Shown here in pieces: positions 12,431-20,800 of a stretch of DNA of 64,000 nt. Positions within the stretch are counted from its first letter, which is position 1. The number at the start of each line of letters is the position of its first letter. The notes under the pieces were generated by a model. The model saw only the letters and a program-made list of their open reading frames with translations. It made no database searches and had not been told where the DNA came from. The translations under genes were made by a program, and so were the position numbers. This DNA is from the human T2T-CHM13v2.0 reference genome, Homo sapiens, in NCBI RefSeq assembly GCF_009914755.1, contig NC_060936.1; one strand, given 5' to 3'.

Positions 12431-13119
12431 GCTGCCTCTACGAACAGAAATCTCAGGGCTGCACCTGAGATTCAATCAGGTGAAAACTGCTGCCTGGGAG
12501 CCAGTGGCACCTAAGGAGTGGCGTCCATGATGTTCTCAGAATTTGGGCTGAGTGGGAAGAAGAAAAGCCCATTTATTTATGAAATCTAGCTTTGGGTGCC
12601 TTAGATAACCCTTTTGATCTATTTCTTGGACTCACTAGAGAAAGTCCTTTTGTACAAAGACACTCTCATCTGCTTTGCTGTATAGAAGAAATAAGCACTC
12701 CATCACCAACTGCCCTTTGAAGGGTGACTTCGTCTTTGGTCTAAATGAATTGGGCCTGTCCCTTTCAAAATGATGTATTCCAGTAAAGGATGGAGAATTT
12801 ATTATTTTTCAAAACAGATGACTGTGGTGTTGACCTAGAAAGGCCCGACTGAAGCCTGCAGGGCAGGTCTGACCATGCTGGGCTTGGGTTTGTTCCCCCG
12901 TCGCATCAGAACATGGGCACCTTCTCACATTAGGTACGGCAACTGATATTCTTTCTGTTTTATTTACTCGGTTCTGAAGCAAAAGAATAAATATTTCATG
13001 AAATTAGCCATTTGCTACTGCAAATACGTTAGGAACATTAAGTATGGAATTCATCTCTCCTTAGCTAGCGAAGCAACTCTAAACATGTAATTAAGATCAA
13101 AGATACATTGTTAAGGTTG

Positions 13120-13285
13120 CCAGCAGTTAATCAGATCATTGATTTTGCCCCATTTTTGTGCATGTATCGCTGAGGCAAGCACTACGATCACTGACTTTGA
13201 ATCCAGCAGTTAATCAGATCATTGATTTTGTCCCATTTTTGTGCATGTATCGCTGAGGCAAGCACTATGATCACTGACTTTGAAT
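13120..13285. repeat. 83-bp tandem duplication (2 copies, 2 mismatches)
   Basis: ccagcagttaatcagatc...gactttgaat at 13120 and 13203. Confidence 0.95.
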
Positions 13286-14290
13286 AACAGATCCAAGTGT
13301 GTCTCTGTCCTCGCCCTGTTCTCCTTATAAGAATATTGAGATACCATATATGCAATTATTAATTTCAAGTGTTTTGTGAAAACTTTGCATGGTTTATCAC
13401 TATGTTAGATGTTGTAGGAGATACCAACGAAACAAAAGAACTCACCCCTTCCTAAATGTTGGAGGGTAACACAGCAGACTCCTCGCCAAGGTCTGGCACA
13501 TAACAGGGGTTCAGTAACAGTCAATCCCTTTTCCACCCACCCTTTCTCTTCACAAGAAAAAGCACCCTCCTGCGGGAGAGTAGGGGAGGTGGTGTTCTAA
13601 CAATGCTTTCACTCGATGCTGTGGCTGAACAAAGGTCTAGAGCTTAAAGTCCAAGCCCAGGTCTCAGAAACGGTAGGGAAACCTGTTTTCCTCACGCTTC
13701 CATTTTATGAACTATAAAATGAGAATAAAACACCTGTCGGCTGTGCAGTAATCGAAGATCTTTTTATTATCCGAGAATAAGAAGTGCTATTGAAACGCAA
13801 AGCTTTATTTATTACAAATACTCAGCAGGGACGAATTCCCATAGATACTCTTAACAACTTGGCAGGGGCTCTTCTGACTCCTTCCAAGATTAAGCTCCTC
13901 ATCTCTGCGAACATAAAACTCGATCTGCTACACAGCTTGCAGATCATGACGCCCTGAACATCACAGTGACAATCTCCTGTGCCCTCCGCCTCAGCGTGTT
14001 CTGCTAAGGGTGATATACTATCCATTCGGAAGCTTAGGCGGGCACATCCTGCTGCTTCATGGGCTGGGATGGATGAAGTGTTGCTGGAAATCTGGGCCAT
14101 TTGTCAACTCCTAGAACATCTATCCTCTAGAAACTAGCTATAAATACCTTTAGAAATAACTTCCTTCAAAGGATTGGGTAAAACATGCCAACTGGGTTTT
14201 TACAAATGAAAGGTTTACTTTGTCTGGTAAAAGAAAACCGTCGTTACTTCCAAAGGCTCATTAAAGCCTTTGTAGGTTAACTTGTGGGAC

Positions 14291-14310
14291 GACACTGCCA
14301 CCTGGTGGTC
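14291..14310 (-). promoter_or_regulatory. Strong CTCF motif (CCACCAGGTGGCAG)
   Basis: Minus strand GACCACCAGGTGGCAGTGTC fits the CTCF core consensus CCASYAGRKGGCRS; locally CpG-retaining flank. Confidence 0.75.
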
Positions 14311-14703
14311 GGCGTGCACTGTGCGCACGGAGCTCCCCAATGGAAGTTACACACTGCTCAAAGAACCACCAGACTTATTAATAAAGAACTAAGCTCTGAG
14401 AACAGCCCTTCTCACAGAGACACTGATTCTTCTGAAGTGGCTCCATACATTTAAGGAAACATACTAAGCTTGGCATTTACTGAGTGACCTAAGCAAAGAA
14501 TTTTCCTACCCGCTCAATTCTTAGTACCAGGTGTACTGAAGGACGTGATTTCTAAAAGCAAAACAAAACAAAAACACTTGAAAGGCAGGCCTGGTGGTGA
14601 CAAAATCTCTCAGCATTTGCTTGTGTGTAAAGGATTTTATTTCTCCTTCGCTTATGAAGCTTAGTTTGGCTGGATATGAAATTCTGGGTTGAAAATTCTA
14701 TTC

Positions 14704-14915
14704 TTTTTTTTTTTTTGAAACGGAGTCTCGCTCTGTCGCCCGAGTAGCTGGGACTACAGGCGCCCTCCATCATGCCCGGCTAATTTTTTGTATTTTTAGT
14801 AGAGACAGGGTTTCACCGTGTTAGCCAGGATGGTCTCGATCTCCTGACCTCGTGATCCACCTGTCTCAGCCTCCCAAAGTGCTGGGCTTACAGGTGTGAG
14901 CCACCGCGCCTGGCC
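14704..14915 (-). mobile_element. AluY-like element nested in L1 ORF1, ~80-bp internal deletion, TSD TGAAAATTCTATTCTT(T)
   Basis: T-tail, gtcgccc|gagtagctg junction, diagnostic gtgttagccaggatggtctcgatc; direct repeats at 14690 and 14918. Confidence 0.9.
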
Positions 14916-14999
14916 CCTGAAAATTCTATTCTTTAAGAATGTTGAATGTTGGCCCCCACTCTCTTCTGGCTTGTAGGGTTTCTGCAGAGATATCCACTG

Positions 15000-15740
15000 T
15001 TAGTCTGATGGGCTTCCCTTTGTGGGTAACTTGACCTTTCTGGCCTCCCTTAACATTTTTTCCTTCATTTCAACCTTGGTGAATCTGAAAATTATGTGTC
15101 TTGGGGTTGCTCTTCTCGAGGAGTATCTTTGTGGTGTTCTCTGTATTTCCTGAATTTGAATGTTGGCCTGCCTTGCCAGGTTGGGGAAGTTCTCCTGGAT
15201 AATATCCTGAAGAGTGTTTTCCAACTTGGTTCCATTCTCCCCATCACTTACAGGTACACCAATCAAATGTAGGTTTGGTCTTTTCACATAGTCCCATATT
15301 TCTTGGAGGCCTTGTTCATCCTTTTCATTTTTTTCTCTAATCTTGTCTTCACGCTTTATTTCATTAAGTTGATCTTCAATCTCTGATATCCTTTTTTCTG
15401 CTTGATCAATTCGGCTACTGATACTTATGTATGCATCACGAAGTTCTCGTGCTGTGTTTTTCAGCTCCATCAGGTCATATATGTTCTTCTCTAAACTGGT
15501 TATTCTAGTTAGCAGTTCCTGTAACCTTTTTTCAAGGTTCTTAGCTTCCTTGCATTGGGTTAGAACATGCTCCTTTAGCTTGGAGGAGTCTGTAACGACC
15601 CACCTTCTGAAGCCTACTTCTGTCAATTCATTCTCCATCCAGTTTTGTTCCCCTGCTGGCGAGGAGTTGTGATCCTTTGGAGGAGAAGAGGCATTCTGGT
15701 TTTTGGAATTTTTAGCCTTTTTGCACTGTTTTTTCCCCAT
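15000..15740 (-). pseudogene. L1 ORF1p remnant (MGKKQ...; 246 codons open) in the inverted segment
   Basis: ORF 15000..15899 contains ORF1p coiled-coil and RRM sequence (EIWDYVKRPNL, IIQENFPNLARQ); ATG at 15740; frame lost before the CTD. Confidence 0.9.
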
Positions 15741-16025
15741 CTTCGTGGATTTATCTTTGACACTGATGACCTTCGGATGGGGTTTTTGCGTGGACGTCCT
15801 TTTTGTTAATGTTGATGGTATTCCTTTCTGTTTGTTAGTTTTCCTTCTAACAGTCAGGCCCCTCTGCTGCAGGTCTGCTGGAGTTTGCTGGAGGTCCACT
15901 CTGCACTAAATATGGAAAGGAAAAACTGGTACCAGCCACTGCAAAAACATACCAAATTGTAAAGACCATCGACATTATGAAGAAACTGCATCAACTAACG
16001 GGCAAAATAACCAGCTAGCATCATA

Positions 16026-19000
16026 ATGACAGGATCAAGTTTACACACAACAATATTAACCTTAAATGTAAATGGGCTAAATGCCCCAATTAAAAGACAC
16101 AGAGTGGCAAATTGGATAAAGAGGCAAGACCCATCGGTGTGCTGTATTCAGGAGACCCATCTCACGTGCAAAGACACACATAGGCTCAAAATAAAGGGAT
16201 GGAGGAATATTTACCAAGCAAATGGAAAGAAGAAAAAAAGCAGAAGTTGCAATCCTAGTCTCTGATAAAACAGACTTTAAACCAACAAAGATCAAAAAAG
16301 ACAAAGAAGGGCATTACATAATGGTAAAGGGATCAATGCAACAAGAAGAGCTAACTATCCTAAATATATATGCACCCAACACAGGAGCACCCAGATTCAT
16401 AAAGCAAGTTCCCAGAAACATACAAAGAGACTTAGACTCCTACATAATAATAGTGGGAGACTTTAACGCCCCTCTGTCAATATTAGACAGATCAATGAGA
16501 CGGAAAATTAACAAGGATATTCAGGACTTGAACTCAGCTCTGGACCAAATGAACCTAACAGACATCTACAGAACTCTTCTCTCCAAATCAACAGAATATA
16601 CATTCTTCTCAGTACCACATCACACTTATTCTAAAATTGACCACATAATCGGAAGTAAAGCACTCCTTAGCAAATGCAAAAGAATGGAAATCATAACAAA
16701 CAGTCTCTCAGACCACTGTGCAATCAAATTAGAACTCAGGATTAAGAAACTCACTCAAAACCGCACAACTACACGGAAACTGAACAACCTGCTCCTGAAT
16801 GACTACTGGGTAAATAACGAAATTAAGGCAGAAATAAGTAAGTTCTTTGAAACCAGGGAAAACAAAGACATATCGCACCAGAATCTCTGGGACACATCTA
16901 TCTAAAGGAGTGTTTAGAGGGAAATTTATAGCACTAAAATGCCTGCAGAAGAAAGCGGGAATGATCTAAAATTGACACCCTAACATCACAATTAAAAGAA
17001 CTAGAGAAGCAAGGGCAAACAAATTCAAAAGCTAACAGAAGACAAGAAATAACTAAAATCAGAGCAGAACTGAAGGAGACAGAAACACGAAAAACCCTTC
17101 AAAAAATCAATGAATCCAGGACCTGGTTTTTTGAAAAGATTAACAAAATAGATAGACTGCTAGCCAGAATAATAAAGAAGAAAAGAGAGAAGAGTCAAAT
17201 AGACACAATAAAAAATGACAAAGGGGATATCACCACAGATCCCACAGAAATACAAACTACCATCAGAGAATACCATAAACACCTCTATGCAAATAAACAA
17301 GAAAATCTAGGAGAAATGGATAAATTCCTTGACACATACACCCTCCCAAGACTAAACCAGGAAGAAGTCGAAGCCCTGAATAGGCCAATAACAAGTTCTG
17401 AAATTGAGGCAGTAATTAATAGCCTATCAACCCAGGACCAGATGGATTCACAGCTGAATTCTACCAGAGGTACAAAGAGGAGCTGGTACCATTCCTTCTG
17501 AAACTATTCCAAACAGTAGAAAAAGAGAGACTCCTCCCTAACTCATTTTATGAGGCCAGCATCATCTTGATACCAAAACCTGGCAGAGACACACAACAAA
17601 AAAAGAAAATTTCAGGTCAATATCCCTGATGAACATCAAAGCGAAAATCCTTAATAAAATACTGGCAAACCGAATCCAGCAGCACATCAAAAAGCTTATC
17701 CACCACGATCATGTCAGCTTCATCCCTCGGATGCAAGGCTGGTTCAACATACACAAACCAATAAACGTCATCCATCACATAAACAGAACCAATGACAAAA
17801 ACCACATGATTATCTCAATAGATGCAGAAAAGGCCTTCGATAAAATTCAACACCCCTTCACGCTAAAAACTCTCAATAAACTAGGTATTGATGGAATGTA
17901 TCTCAAAATAATAAGAGCTATTTATGACAAACCCACAGCCAATATCATACTGAATGGGCAAAAGTTGAAAGCATTCCCTTTGAAAACTGGCACAAGACAA
18001 GGATGCCCTCTCTCAATACTCCTATTCAACATAGTATTGGAAGTTCTGGCCAGGGCAATCAGGCAAGAGAAAGAAATAATATTCAAATAGGAACAGAGGA
18101 AGTCAAATTGTCTCTGTTTGCAGATGACATGACTGTATATTTAGAAAACCCCATCGTCTCAGCCCAAAATCTTAAACTCATAAGCAATTTCAGCAAAGTC
18201 TCAGGATACAAAATCAATGTGCAAAAATCACAAGCATTCCTATACACCAATAATAGACAAACAGAGAGCCAAATCATAAGTGAACTCCCATTCACAATTG
18301 CTACAAAGATAATAAAATACCTAGGAATACAACTTACAAGGGATGTGAAGGATCTCTTCAAGGAGACCTACAAACCACAACTCAAGGAAATAAGAGAGGA
18401 CACAAAGAAATGGAAAAACATTCCATGCTCATGGCTAGGAAGAATCAGTATGATCAAAATGGCCACACTGCCCAAAGTAATTTATAGATTCAATGCTATC
18501 CCCATCAAGCTACCATTGACTTTCTTCACAGAATTAGAAAAAACTACTTTAAATTTCATATGGAACCAAAAAAGAGCCCGTATAGCCAAGACAATCCTAA
18601 GTAAAAAGAACAAAGCTGCAGGCATCATGTTACCTGACTTCAAACTATACTACAAGGCTACAGTAACCAAAACAGCATGGTACTGGTACCAAAACAGATA
18701 TACAGACCAAGGAACAGAACAGAGGCCCTCAGAAATAATGCCACACATCTACAACCATCTGACTTTTGACAAACCTGACAAAAACAAGCAATGGGGAAAG
18801 GATTCCCTATTTAATAAGTGGTGTTGGGAAAACTGGCTAGCCATATGCAGAAAGCTGAAACTGGACCCCTTCCTTACACCTTATACAAAAATTAACTCAA
18901 GATGGATTAAAGACTTAAATGTAAGACCTAAAACCATAAAAACCCTAGAAGAAAACCTAGGCAATACCGTTCAGGACATAGGCATGTGCAAAGACTTCAT

Positions 19001-19942
19001 GACTAAAACACCAAAAGCAATGGCAACAAAAGCCAAAATTGACAAATGGGATCTGATTAAACTAAAGAGTTTCTGCACATCAAAAGAAACTATATCAGAA
19101 TGAACAGGCAACCTACAGAATGGGAGAAATTTTTTGCAATCTGCCCATCTGACAAAGGGCTAATATCCAGAATCTACAAAGAACTTAAACAAATTTACAA
19201 GAAAAAAACAATCCCATCAAAAAGTGGGCAAAGTATATGAACAGACACTTCTCAAAAGAAGACATTTATGTGGCCAACAAACATGAAAAAAAGCTCATCA
19301 TCACTGGTCATTAGAGAAATGCAAATCAAAGCCACAATGAGATACCATCTCACACCAGTTACAATGGTGATCATTAAAAAGTCAGGAAACAACAGATGCT
19401 GGAGAGGATGTGGAGAAACAGGAACGCTTTTACATTGTTGTTGGGAGTGTAAATTAGTTCAACCATTGTGGAAGACAGTGTGGTGATTCCTCAAGGATCT
19501 AGAACCAGAAATACCATTTGACCCAGCAATCCCATTACTGGGTATATACCCAAAGGATTATAACTCTAATTATTACCCATAACTAGGTATATACCCGAAG
19601 GATTATAACTCTACTTATTACTGGGTATATACCCAAAGGATTGTAACTCTACTATAATCAAAGGATTATCATTCCACTATCAAGACACATGCACACGTAT
19701 GTTTATTGCAGCACTATTCACAATAGCAAAGACTTGGAACCAACCCAAATGTCCATTAATGATAGACTGGATAAAGAAAATACGGCATATATACACCCAG
19801 GGAATACTATGCAGCCATAAAAAAGAATGAGTTCTTGTCCTTTGCAGGGGCATGGATGAAGCTGGAAACCATCATTCTCAGCAAACTAACAAAGTAACAG
19901 AAAACCAAACACCACATGTTCTCACTCACAGGTGGGAATTGA
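16026..19942 (+). pseudogene. L1 ORF2p (endonuclease/reverse transcriptase), broken by frameshifts and stops
   Basis: Fragments [42 protein letters not shown] in different frames; ORF2 end GGGAATTGA at 19942. Confidence 0.95.
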
Positions 19943-20165
19943 ACAATGAGAACACACGGACATAGGGAGGGGAACATCACACACTGGGGTCTGTCGCGGG
20001 GTGGGGGACTAGGGGAGGAAGCGCGTTAGGAGAAATACTAATGTAGATGATGGGTTGATGGGTGCAGCAAACCACCATGGCATGTGTATACCTATGTAAC
20101 AAACCTGCATGTTCTGTACATGTACCCCAGAACTTAAAGTATAATAATAATTAAAAAACACTTGA

Positions 20166-20319
20166 GTATAAAAAAAAGTCTGAAACATTTTACTTCATAT
20201 TACACATACTTTTTTTTTAAAAAAGGCAGAAACATTGAAGGAAACAACACTCAACATGAAAGAACCTTGTGCCGGAGTTCTAGAAGGACCTTGAAAATCA
20301 GTTTTAAAAGGCCTTGCTG
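20166..20319 (-). other. DCP1B: DCP1B proximal 3'UTR up to the L1 insertion; variant polyA signal AGTAAA at 20194-20189
   Basis: Follows the stop codon; no AATAAA/ATTAAA on minus strand before the L1; AGTAAA followed by U-rich tracts. Exact 3' end not determinable from sequence. Confidence 0.65.
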
Positions 20320-20400
20320 TCACATAGTCTTTTTCATGGCTGCTTGAGTCATGCTGAAGAGATAGGCTTCATAGATTATATTTAAGAAGTTGTCATCATT
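20320..20400 (-). CDS. DCP1B: DCP1B terminal exon 9, coding part: NDDNFLNIIYEAYLFSMTQAAMKKTM*
   Basis: ttccag|AATGATGAC; TGA at 20322-20320; completes the Dcp1 trimerisation motif (LIQNDDNFLNIIYEAY). Confidence 0.96.
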   Translation of the reverse strand, partial: NDDNFLNIIYEAYLFSMTQAAMKKTM

Positions 20401-20800
20401 CTGGAAAACAAATCGAAAGACCCAAGAGAATGTTACTTGGTTGGCAGACACAAAAGGCTTCCTCTGTCTTAGAGCTGAACTGGCCTTTGGATACTGAGAC
20501 ACTCATCTCTCCCTGTCTAACAGCTGGTGGTTTTTAATTGCATGTGTGAATGTTAAGTGGGGTTGACGGCAAGGCCGGACAGAGCTGATGGTTTTCCATG
20601 GTCAGTATGCACAGCAGCAAGAGCTCATTACATGCAGCACAGATGGGCAGCCCAGACACATGGCAGCATGGAGCAAGGTTTACTCAAGAACAGCCTGGGT
20701 CTGCTGCATGAAAAGACATGAAGCCCCAGCAGACAGAGGAGTTAGGAGGACATGATCCAAGTCAGTGGTCTCAAAGTTTGGTTAAGAGATTGCTGTGGTG

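What the first reader, a model, noticed from the sequence alone, without database searches (positions are those of the whole stretch)
13760..20319. L1 insertion appears to have split the DCP1B 3'UTR and orphaned an ancestral polyA signal
Seen: the L1 TSD (14570-14581 / 20154-20165) places the insertion only ~155 nt after the DCP1B stop. The remaining proximal UTR has only the variant AGTAAA. Removing the L1 in silico joins it to ~800 nt of unique sequence ending in overlapping AATAAATAAA (minus strand, 13813-13804) plus another AATAAA (13768-13763). Inference: the ancestral ~0.95-kb 3'UTR ended near 13785; in lineages carrying the L1 the mRNA ends at a weak proximal site, possibly using the antisense L1 tail as the U-rich downstream element, or at the L1-antisense AATAAA (19707-19702). 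This would be lineage-specific loss of UTR regulation.
Basis: partly seen in the sequence, partly recalled or inferred. Interest (0 to 1): 0.7.

Follow-up and report, generated by a model that had tools for sequence, protein, structure and literature searches.

The report
L1 inserted beside DCP1B poly(A) site
An old primate L1 retrotransposon landed two bases past the point where the human DCP1B mRNA ends, but that end-point is built from pre-existing sequence, so the insertion probably cut off at most an alternative longer tail and did not create the present one.

Summary
The sequence observation holds. A 12-bp target-site duplication (14570-14581 / 20154-20165) brackets 5,572 bp of L1, 155 nt after the DCP1B stop. 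AGTAAA is the only strong-type hexamer in the 153-nt RefSeq 3'UTR. Removing the L1 joins it to 810 nt of single-copy DNA ending in an AATAAA cluster (13813-13804, 13768-13763).

Three corrections:
- The L1 is not simply antisense. It is a 5'-inverted ("twin-priming") insertion with a nested Alu. Its left 1.3 kb runs in the same sense as DCP1B.
- The L1 A-tail is 1-6 nt, so the U-rich tract after the cleavage site is target DNA kept by the duplication, not L1 tail.
- Before insertion, AGTAAA was followed by a very strong GU/U-rich tract.

The proximal site therefore most likely predates the L1 (about 0.75). Whether the 0.8 kb was ever a distal DCP1B UTR is open (about 0.45). The only outside support is that mouse Dcp1b uses several poly(A) sites and shifts to distal ones in development. 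No orthologous sequence or 3'-end data could be reached. This is an ordinary member of the known class of transposon-associated poly(A) sites.

The parts
20320..20322 (-). DCP1B stop codon TGA
   Evidence: coding end 20320 in the gene table given
20167..20319 (-). annotated 153-nt DCP1B 3'UTR (NM_152640.5), all non-repeat target DNA
   Evidence: gene table given; sequence
20189..20194 (-). AGTAAA variant poly(A) hexamer, 22 nt before the RefSeq mRNA end
20154..20165 (.). right copy of the target-site duplication; on the DCP1B strand it supplies GTGTTTTT, the start of the downstream element of the proximal site
15903..20153 (+). L1 3' segment, L1-sense on the plus strand (antisense to DCP1B): last 19 codons of ORF1, ORF2 from ATG 16026 (broken into pieces), 3'UTR, 1-6 nt A-tail
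   Evidence: Exo_endo_phos, RVT_1; ORF2p, E 2e-201
14582..15902 (-). inverted L1 5' segment, L1-sense on the DCP1B strand: 162 nt of 5'UTR, ORF1 from ATG 15740 to ...TTRPA at the left junction
   Evidence: (Transposase_22 E 2.4e-49)
14707..14917 (-). Alu nested in the inverted ORF1, internally deleted, 13-A tail, own duplication of up to 17 bp (14690-14706 / 14918-14934)
   Evidence: read; Alu identity recalled, not tested against a library
14570..14581 (.). left copy of the target-site duplication
14555..14569 (-). rest of the GU/U-rich tract (GTTTTGTTTTGCTTT), now 5.6 kb away from the proximal poly(A) site
13760..14569 (-). 810 nt of single-copy DNA, candidate former distal UTR
   Evidence: only a self match in the assembly
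13804..13813 (-). overlapping AATAAATAAA
13763..13768 (-). AATAAA followed by GGTGTTTTATTCTCATTTT about 25-45 nt downstream
14295..14308 (-). CTCF-core-like motif CCACCAGGTGGCAG inside the single-copy piece
   Evidence: the only match in 64 kb, 0.04 expected; the consensus used is recalled
15705..15905 (-). RefSeq alternative terminal exon; its acceptor AG (15907-15906) and pyrimidine tract come from the antisense L1 segment, its body from the inverted segment
   Evidence: gene table given; sequence
19702..19707 (-).

Best explanation
Roughly 20-30 million years ago an L1 integrated by target-primed reverse transcription into the T-rich tract just downstream of an already existing proximal DCP1B poly(A) site.

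That site consists of AGTAAA, cleavage about 22 nt later, and then GTGTTTTTGTTTTGTTTTGCTTTT. The L1 endonuclease nicked the DCP1B strand after GTGTTTTT. Target-site duplication left a copy of that stretch next to the cleavage site, so the proximal site kept working. It is still the end of the main human mRNA, giving a 153-nt UTR.

The insertion is 5'-inverted (twin priming) and later took up an Alu. It pushed 0.8 kb of single-copy DNA 5.6 kb away.

Transcripts that read through now meet 1.3 kb of sense-oriented, A-rich L1 with its own AATAAAs, and a splice acceptor at the inversion junction. They therefore end or are spliced inside the L1 and do not reach the old distal site.

Shown: the anatomy, the age range and the composition of the downstream elements. 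Inferred: that the proximal site was used before the insertion (about 0.75) and that the distal cluster was a DCP1B poly(A) site (about 0.45). The confidence below is for the full scenario with both.
For: Insertion anatomy:
- Identical 12-mers flank the L1, and the mRNA end lies 2 nt from the duplication (and the gene table).
- On the minus-strand ORF, Pfam finds L1 ORF1 domains (Transposase_22 E 2.4e-49, Tnp_22_trimer 1.8e-12). On plus-strand ORFs it finds endonuclease and RT domains (Exo_endo_phos 1e-07, RVT_1 6e-29). 5 of the 8 ORF pieces scanned had a family.
- PDB matches to human ORF2p (E 2e-201) and ORF1p (E 4.7e-63).
- The inverted piece ends at residue 209 of the 229-residue ORF1p chain 2ykp.
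- In 8 of 10 uninverted genomic L1 copies, exactly 19 nt lie between the end of the inverted piece and the start of the sense piece. A ninth gives 21 with 2 unaligned query bases, consistent with 19 nt once these are allowed for. The tenth is uninformative.

Proximal site:
- In the excised allele, the 40-mer after the hexamer region is 60% T (99.5th percentile of all 40-mers on that strand of the window) and 75% G+T (98.7th).
- In the present allele it is 57% T (99.1st) and 62% G+T (85th).

Distal segment:
- It is single-copy.
- It holds three AATAAA within 50 nt (expected 0.24 per 810 nt).

Mouse: Dcp1b is one of four named example genes with progressive selection of distal isoforms from E9.5 to E13.5 (PMC8385098, passages read). 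Supplementary Table S1 of that paper gives -log10 q = 8.67 for Dcp1b; I did not establish which test that table reports.

Read-through: RefSeq itself lists a transcript spliced from 20266 to an exon at 15905-15705 inside the L1, so some transcription passes the proximal site (gene table).
Against: - No orthologous sequence and no 3'-end sequencing data were available, so neither the age of the proximal site nor use of the distal cluster is shown.
- AATAAA occurs at 0.95 per kb on this strand, with four more within 3 kb downstream. The distal cluster could be chance.
- RefSeq lists no human transcript reaching 13.8 kb.
- The single-copy piece carries a CTCF-like motif, which offers a non-UTR reason for it to be kept.
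- The mouse paper gives no coordinates that I could read. The tables with counts per poly(A) site were too large to open, and the one large file that did open did not contain the Dcp1b transcript id.
- No DCP1B retrocopy exists in the assembly that could have recorded an old 3' end.
Confidence: 0.4

Rival explanations
1. Nothing functional was orphaned. DCP1B always ended at the proximal AGTAAA site. The 0.8 kb beyond it was ordinary downstream DNA, perhaps kept for a CTCF site, and the AATAAA cluster at 13.8 kb is incidental or belongs to no mRNA. The L1 simply landed in the T-rich tract past the gene end.
For: - All proximal-site elements are non-L1, and the excised allele has a top-percentile GU/U-rich tract.
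- AATAAA occurs at 0.95 per kb on this strand, with further copies at 12964, 12803, 12577 and 10770.
- No RefSeq transcript reaches the cluster (gene table).
- The piece holds the only CTCF-core-like motif in 64 kb, with 0.04 expected.
Against: - Mouse Dcp1b is described as having many poly(A) sites with a distal shift, so a short-only ancestral UTR is not the obvious expectation.
- Three AATAAA within 50 nt, each followed by U- or GU-rich sequence, is more than composition predicts (P about 0.003).
Confidence: 0.35
2. The ancestral mRNA ended only at ~13785, giving a ~0.95-kb UTR. The proximal AGTAAA was silent until the L1 arrived and forced or enabled its use, so L1-bearing lineages lost all regulation carried in the long UTR.
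For: - AGTAAA is a variant hexamer, while the distal cluster is canonical.
- The L1 lies between the two.
- Mouse Dcp1b has distal isoforms.
Against: - The L1 contributes at most 1-6 T to the downstream element.
- The insertion lowered the G+T content of the downstream 40-mer from 75% to 62%, which is the wrong direction for activating a site.
- The same mouse text speaks of selection among proximal and distal isoforms, that is, several sites and not one.
Confidence: 0.15

Closest known systems
Transposon-associated poly(A) sites, 'type 3' association in which the TE occupies only the +1 to +40 region (Lee, Ji and Tian 2008, PMC2553571; sections 9 and 11 read)
   Same: - An L1 3' end in antisense orientation begins within 40 nt downstream of a used human poly(A) site.
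- The paper reports that about 8% of human sites are TE-associated.
- It reports L1 as the commonest family, with minus-strand L1 favoured 2:1.
- It states that TEs help define the 3' boundary of genes.
   Different: Here the TE supplies almost none of the signal. The hexamer, the cleavage site and the first 12 nt downstream are target DNA kept by the duplication, so the site is more likely preserved despite the L1 than created by it.
5'-inverted L1 insertions explained by twin priming (Ostertag and Kazazian 2001, recalled; described in the review PMC10760644, passage read)
   Same: - An inverted 5' L1 segment is joined to a sense 3' segment inside one target-site duplication.
- The two breakpoints are 19 nt apart in L1 coordinates.
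   Different: Nothing unusual in the structure itself. The side effect is that the inversion junction places an antisense-L1 pyrimidine tract and AG in front of sense-oriented L1 sequence, and RefSeq annotates a DCP1B terminal exon starting there.
Premature polyadenylation and poor elongation in sense-oriented L1 (Perepelitsa-Belancio and Deininger 2003; Han, Szak and Boeke 2004; both recalled, not read here. Lee et al. cite internal L1 poly(A) sites)
   Same: The inverted 1.3 kb is A-rich L1 sense on the gene strand, with AATAAA at 15360-15355 and 14641-14636 and an annotated transcript end at 15705.
   Different: Use of these signals in DCP1B is not shown. The annotated end at 15705 has no canonical hexamer within 40 nt and abuts genomic AAAAA, so it could be an internal-priming artefact.
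CTCF-dependent choice between proximal and distal poly(A) sites (abstract of PMC12162027 as shown in the search listing)
   Same: Before the insertion, a strong CTCF-core-like motif lay between the proximal site (about 270 nt upstream of it) and the distal AATAAA cluster (about 480 nt downstream of it).
   Different: CTCF binding here was not tested, and the motif consensus is recalled. This is a lead only.

Membership tests
LINE-1 insertion made by target-primed reverse transcription | Flanking target-site duplication | tested here: met
   12 of 12 identical bases at 14570-14581 and 20154-20165. 5 of the 12 are A and could instead be tail, so the duplication is 7-12 bp.
LINE-1 insertion made by target-primed reverse transcription | L1 ORF1 and ORF2 (endonuclease, reverse transcriptase) coding remnants | tested here: met
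   Pfam Transposase_22, Tnp_22_trimer, Exo_endo_phos and RVT_1; PDB human ORF2p E 2e-201 and ORF1p E 4.7e-63.
LINE-1 insertion made by target-primed reverse transcription | 3' poly(A) tail and a T-rich endonuclease target | tested here: inconclusive
   Only a 6-A run remains, 1 A if the duplication is 12 bp. The nick on the DCP1B strand falls after TTTTT and before G, which is T-rich but not the textbook TTTT/AA (the consensus is recalled).
Twin-priming (5'-inverted) L1 | Inverted 5' segment and sense 3' segment within one duplication, with breakpoints adjacent in L1 coordinates | tested here: met
   ORF1 lies on the minus strand and ORF2 on the plus strand. In 8 of 10 uninverted copies the breakpoints are 19 nt apart; a ninth is consistent with 19 nt after allowing for 2 unaligned query bases, and one is uninformative.
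Primate L1PA subfamily of intermediate age (about L1PA5-L1PA7) | Divergence from sister copies and subfamily-diagnostic positions | tested here: inconclusive
   Star tree with 10 near copies: terminal branch 0.048, private changes 28 of 898, mean pairwise 8.35%. About 86% amino-acid identity to L1HS ORF2p over 346 columns (my count). No Repbase or Dfam consensus was available, so no subfamily name was tested.
TE-associated poly(A) site, type 3 (Lee et al. 2008) | A TE within +1 to +40 nt of a used poly(A) site and not upstream of it | tested here: met
   The RefSeq end is at 20167 and the L1 begins at 20153, 14 nt downstream (definition read).
TE-created (non-conserved) poly(A) site | The site is absent in species that lack the TE | not testable with these tools
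   No mammalian genome other than this assembly is held. Composition argues against it: the excised allele has the stronger downstream element.
Tandem 3'UTR alternative polyadenylation (proximal plus distal site in one terminal exon) | mRNA 3' ends mapped at both sites in the L1-free state | not testable with these tools
   Only indirect evidence: the mouse Dcp1b statement in PMC8385098. The tables with counts per site were too large to open.

The most novel reading that the evidence does not exclude
Before the insertion, DCP1B had a compact switch: a weak proximal site, a CTCF site about 270 nt downstream of it, and a strong distal AATAAA cluster about 480 nt further on. This switch allowed the developmental 3'UTR lengthening still seen in mouse. 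In catarrhine primates the L1 broke the switch by moving the CTCF site and the distal signals 5.6 kb away behind sense-oriented L1. That locked this decapping factor into a 153-nt UTR and removed nearly all microRNA and RNA-binding-protein control of its mRNA.
Probability: 0.12. Interest if true: 0.55.

Novelty: new member of a known kind. Interest (0 to 1): 0.3.

Why it matters
If the distal isoform was real, this is a clean, datable case in which one retrotransposon insertion removed about 0.8 kb of 3'UTR from a core mRNA-decay gene in apes and probably Old World monkeys. That would be a lineage-specific loss of post-transcriptional control that can be tested directly by comparing species with and without the L1.

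It also shows two small mechanisms:
- L1 endonuclease is drawn to the T-rich downstream element of a poly(A) site, and the target-site duplication preserves that element.
- A twin-priming junction can assemble a new terminal exon.

As it stands it is one locus of a class already described genome-wide, and the functional claim is untested.

Tried and rejected
- Cross-species alignment: no tool holds mammalian genomes other than this assembly, so it was not done.
- DCP1B retrocopies as fossils of old 3' ends: the 873-nt exon and the last exon each match only themselves.
- Literature on DCP1B and polyadenylation: 7 papers, 6 listed.
  - Only PMC8385098 bears on the UTR.
  - PMC8450112 uses DCP1B only as an eCLIP protein.
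  - PMC5008151 only shows the mouse Dcp1b promoter.
- 'DCP1B' with 'L1PA': 3 papers, none about this locus.
- 'DCP1B 3': 2 papers. PMC4093940 tests microRNA sites in '3'UTRs' of alternative Ensembl transcripts at hg19 positions 2,059,337 and above. By my recalled hg19 offset these lie upstream of the stop, in an intron or coding exon, not in the region at issue.
- Supplements of PMC8385098: the Dcp1b rows found give only q-values and expression. The transcript id is absent from file 8. Four larger files, which should hold the counts per site, could not be opened.
- Rfam on 13000-20600: no family.
- Khan et al. 2006, for subfamily ages: not held under the id I tried. Two ages are quoted from PMC4083085 instead, and the 0.17% per Myr rate is recalled.
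- The L1-antisense AATAAA at 19707-19702 as an mRNA end: its downstream 40-mer is only 38% T and no annotated end lies there. Not excluded, but nothing supports it.


Full report
**What is there**

Read on the minus strand (the DCP1B strand), the stop TGA is at 20322-20320. The RefSeq mRNA ends at 20167 (gene table given), so the annotated 3'UTR is 153 nt.

Within that UTR, the only one of AATAAA, ATTAAA and AGTAAA is AGTAAA at 20194-20189, 22 nt before the annotated end. Two bases after the end comes TCAAGTGTTTTT (20165-20154). The same 12 bases recur at 14581-14570.

Between the two copies lie 5,572 bp of L1. On the plus strand the right junction reads ...ATAATAATT, then AAAAAA, then CACTTGA. 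The L1 A-run is therefore only six bases, and five of them are also the start of the 12-bp repeat. The duplication is 7-12 bp and the tail 1-6 nt.

**The L1 is a 5'-inverted insertion**

It is not.

- Stop-to-stop ORFs show ORF2 pieces on the plus strand from 16011 to about 19830, and a 301-codon open frame on the minus strand at 15905-15000.
- Pfam assigns the minus-strand frame to L1 ORF1 (Transposase_22 E 2.4e-49; Tnp_22_trimer E 1.8e-12). It assigns the plus-strand frames to the endonuclease and reverse transcriptase (Exo_endo_phos E 1e-07 and 3.3e-07; RVT_1 E 6e-29 and 1.7e-08). 5 of the 8 pieces scanned had a family and 3 had none.
- PDB searches give human ORF2p (E 2e-201) and ORF1p (E 4.7e-63).
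- The last 38 codons before the left junction match ORF1p chain 2ykp residues 172-209 of 229.
- The plus-strand segment starts at 15903 with ALNMERKNWYQPLQKHTKL-stop, the ORF1 C-terminus, followed by the ORF2 ATG at 16026.

I mapped both break ends onto uninverted genomic L1 copies. Of 11 copies held, 10 matched both ends. In 8 of those 10, exactly 19 nt of L1 lie between the two ends. A ninth gives 21 with two unaligned query bases, which is consistent with 19 nt once these are allowed for. The tenth aligned only partly and says nothing.

This is the structure that the twin-priming model describes: an inverted 5' part joined to a sense 3' part (PMC10760644, passage read). The inverted part (15902-14582) carries 162 nt of 5'UTR and ORF1 from the ATG at 15740. 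An Alu with a 13-A tail and its own duplication of up to 17 bp sits inside it at about 14707-14917. I recognised the Alu by recall and did not test it against a library.

**Age**

The 604-nt ORF1/5'UTR piece finds 4,553 candidate copies in the assembly, of which 40 were scored. The 39 non-self matches are 87-89% identical.

Ten near copies with full-length matches (L012 was dropped as partial) form a star tree with this element.
- Mean pairwise distances are 7.9-9.3% for the others and 8.35% for this one.
- Its terminal branch is 0.048.
- 28 of 898 sites are private changes.

At the 0.17% per Myr that I recall from Khan et al. 2006 (paper not held), 3.1-4.8% gives about 18-28 Myr. PMC4083085 quotes 26.8 Myr for the L1PA6/7 boundary and 7.6 Myr for L1PA2.

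The 346-column ORF2 alignment to L1HS shows 49 differences by my count, about 86% identity. The element is therefore primate-specific and absent from mouse, dog and lemur. It is probably shared by apes and perhaps Old World monkeys. I could not name a subfamily.

**The proximal poly(A) site**

Everything that defines the site lies outside the L1:
- a T6A9 stretch and one UGUA upstream;
- AGTAAA;
- a T8 run before the cleavage position;
- downstream, CTCAAGTGTTTTT.

In the allele with the L1 removed, this continues as GTTTTGTTTTGCTTTT (now at 14569-14554).

| Allele | T in downstream 40-mer | Percentile | G+T | Percentile |
|---|---|---|---|---|
| Excised (pre-insertion) | 60% | 99.5th | 75% | 98.7th |
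| Present | 57% | 99.1st | 62% | 85th |

Percentiles are against all 40-mers on this strand of the window.

The insertion therefore did not supply a downstream element. It removed half of a very good one, and the target-site duplication kept the other half in place. The simplest reading is that the L1 endonuclease, which prefers T-rich targets (recalled), nicked the U-rich downstream element of a site that already existed. I put this at about 0.75. It is an inference from composition, because no L1-free orthologue could be examined.

**The distal segment**

Window 13760-14569 is single-copy in the assembly. It ends with AATAAATAAA (13813-13804) and AATAAA (13768-13763). The latter is followed by GGTGTTTTATTCTCATTTT.

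A first-order Markov model of the piece expects 0.24 AATAAA and gives three or more in 0.26% of trials. However, two of the three overlap. On this strand of the window AATAAA occurs 61 times (0.95 per kb), with four more in the next 3 kb. The cluster is suggestive, not compelling.

Outside evidence is limited to one statement. In mouse embryos, Dcp1b is one of four named genes in which later stages progressively select distal isoforms, among genes said to contain many poly(A) sites (PMC8385098 main text). Supplementary Table S1 of that paper gives -log10 q = 8.67 for Dcp1b; I did not establish which test that table reports. The tables that would give site positions were too large to open. One readable large file lacks the Dcp1b transcript id.

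This makes an ancestral longer isoform plausible. It also implies several sites rather than a single distal one.

**What read-through transcripts meet now**

RefSeq lists a transcript spliced from 20266 (donor AAG|GTTCTT) to an exon at 15905-15705.

Its acceptor (TTTTTCCTTTCCATATTTAG, with AG at 15907-15906) is the antisense strand of the sense L1 segment. Its body is the inverted segment, starting 3 nt before the inversion junction. The twin-priming junction has thus assembled a terminal exon.

The annotated end at 15705 has no AATAAA, ATTAAA or AGTAAA within 40 nt and is followed by genomic AAAAA. It may be an internal-priming artefact.

Further on, the sense-oriented L1 holds AATAAA at 15360-15355 and 14641-14636. 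Sense L1 is known to cause premature polyadenylation (recalled; Lee et al. cite internal L1 poly(A) sites).

**Comparison with what is known**

Lee, Ji and Tian 2008 (PMC2553571; sections 9 and 11 read) found the following:
- About 8% of human poly(A) sites lie in or within 40 nt of a transposon.
- L1 is the commonest family.
- The minus strand is favoured 2:1.
- In 'type 3' associations only the +1 to +40 region is TE.
- TEs help set gene 3' boundaries.

The DCP1B site meets the type 3 definition, since the L1 starts 14 nt after the end. It differs in that the TE seems to have spared the site rather than made it.

My searches for this locus in print found no paper describing the L1, the poly(A) sites or a long human DCP1B UTR. 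The microRNA-138 study (PMC4093940) concerns '3'UTRs' of alternative transcripts that, by my recalled hg19 offset, lie upstream of the stop.

**Verdict**

An L1 does separate the short UTR from a possible distal end. The evidence points away from 'weak make-do site after loss of the real one' and towards 'old proximal site kept, possible distal isoform cut off'.

My odds:
- ancestral proximal plus distal sites, 0.40;
- proximal only with nothing orphaned, 0.35;
- other, 0.10.

This is a new member of a known kind and of modest interest until the cross-species and 3'-end data are examined.

Noticed in passing
window 14295-14308 (-): CCACCAGGTGGCAG matches a recalled CTCF core consensus. It is the only match in the 64-kb window, with 0.04 expected and 4 of 100 shuffles giving one. 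It sits in a patch with several CpGs, inside the segment the L1 pushed away from DCP1B.
   Followed up: partly
window 15903-15907 (-): The splice acceptor of the RefSeq alternative DCP1B terminal exon (15905-15705) lies at the L1 inversion junction. The pyrimidine tract and AG come from antisense L1, and the exon body from the inverted, sense-oriented L1 5'UTR and ORF1 start.
   Followed up: partly
window 20266-20320 (-): The donor of that alternative transcript is 54 nt after the stop codon. The resulting 3'UTR intron (20265-15906) sits right at the 50-55-nt boundary usually quoted for nonsense-mediated decay (rule recalled).
   Followed up: no
window 15705-15745 (-): The annotated transcript end at 15705 has no AATAAA, ATTAAA or AGTAAA within 40 nt, lies in A-rich L1 ORF1 start sequence and abuts genomic AAAAA. 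It may be an internal-priming artefact and not a true poly(A) site.
   Followed up: no
window 14690-14934 (-): An Alu is nested in the inverted L1 ORF1. It has an internal deletion, a 13-A tail and a duplication of up to 17 bp (AAAGAATAGAATTTTCA). It looks AluY-like by recall, which would fit an L1 older than the Alu.
   Followed up: no
window 15000-15905 (-): The inverted L1 ORF1 frame is still open for 301 codons in an element with about 3-5% private divergence. ORF2 is broken into at least eight pieces of 60 aa or more.
   Followed up: no
window 14636-14641 and 14555-14578 (-): An L1-sense AATAAA near the left junction is now followed, about 58-80 nt later, by the orphaned half of the GU/U-rich tract. 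This is a possible but rather distant new hexamer and downstream-element pairing.
   Followed up: no
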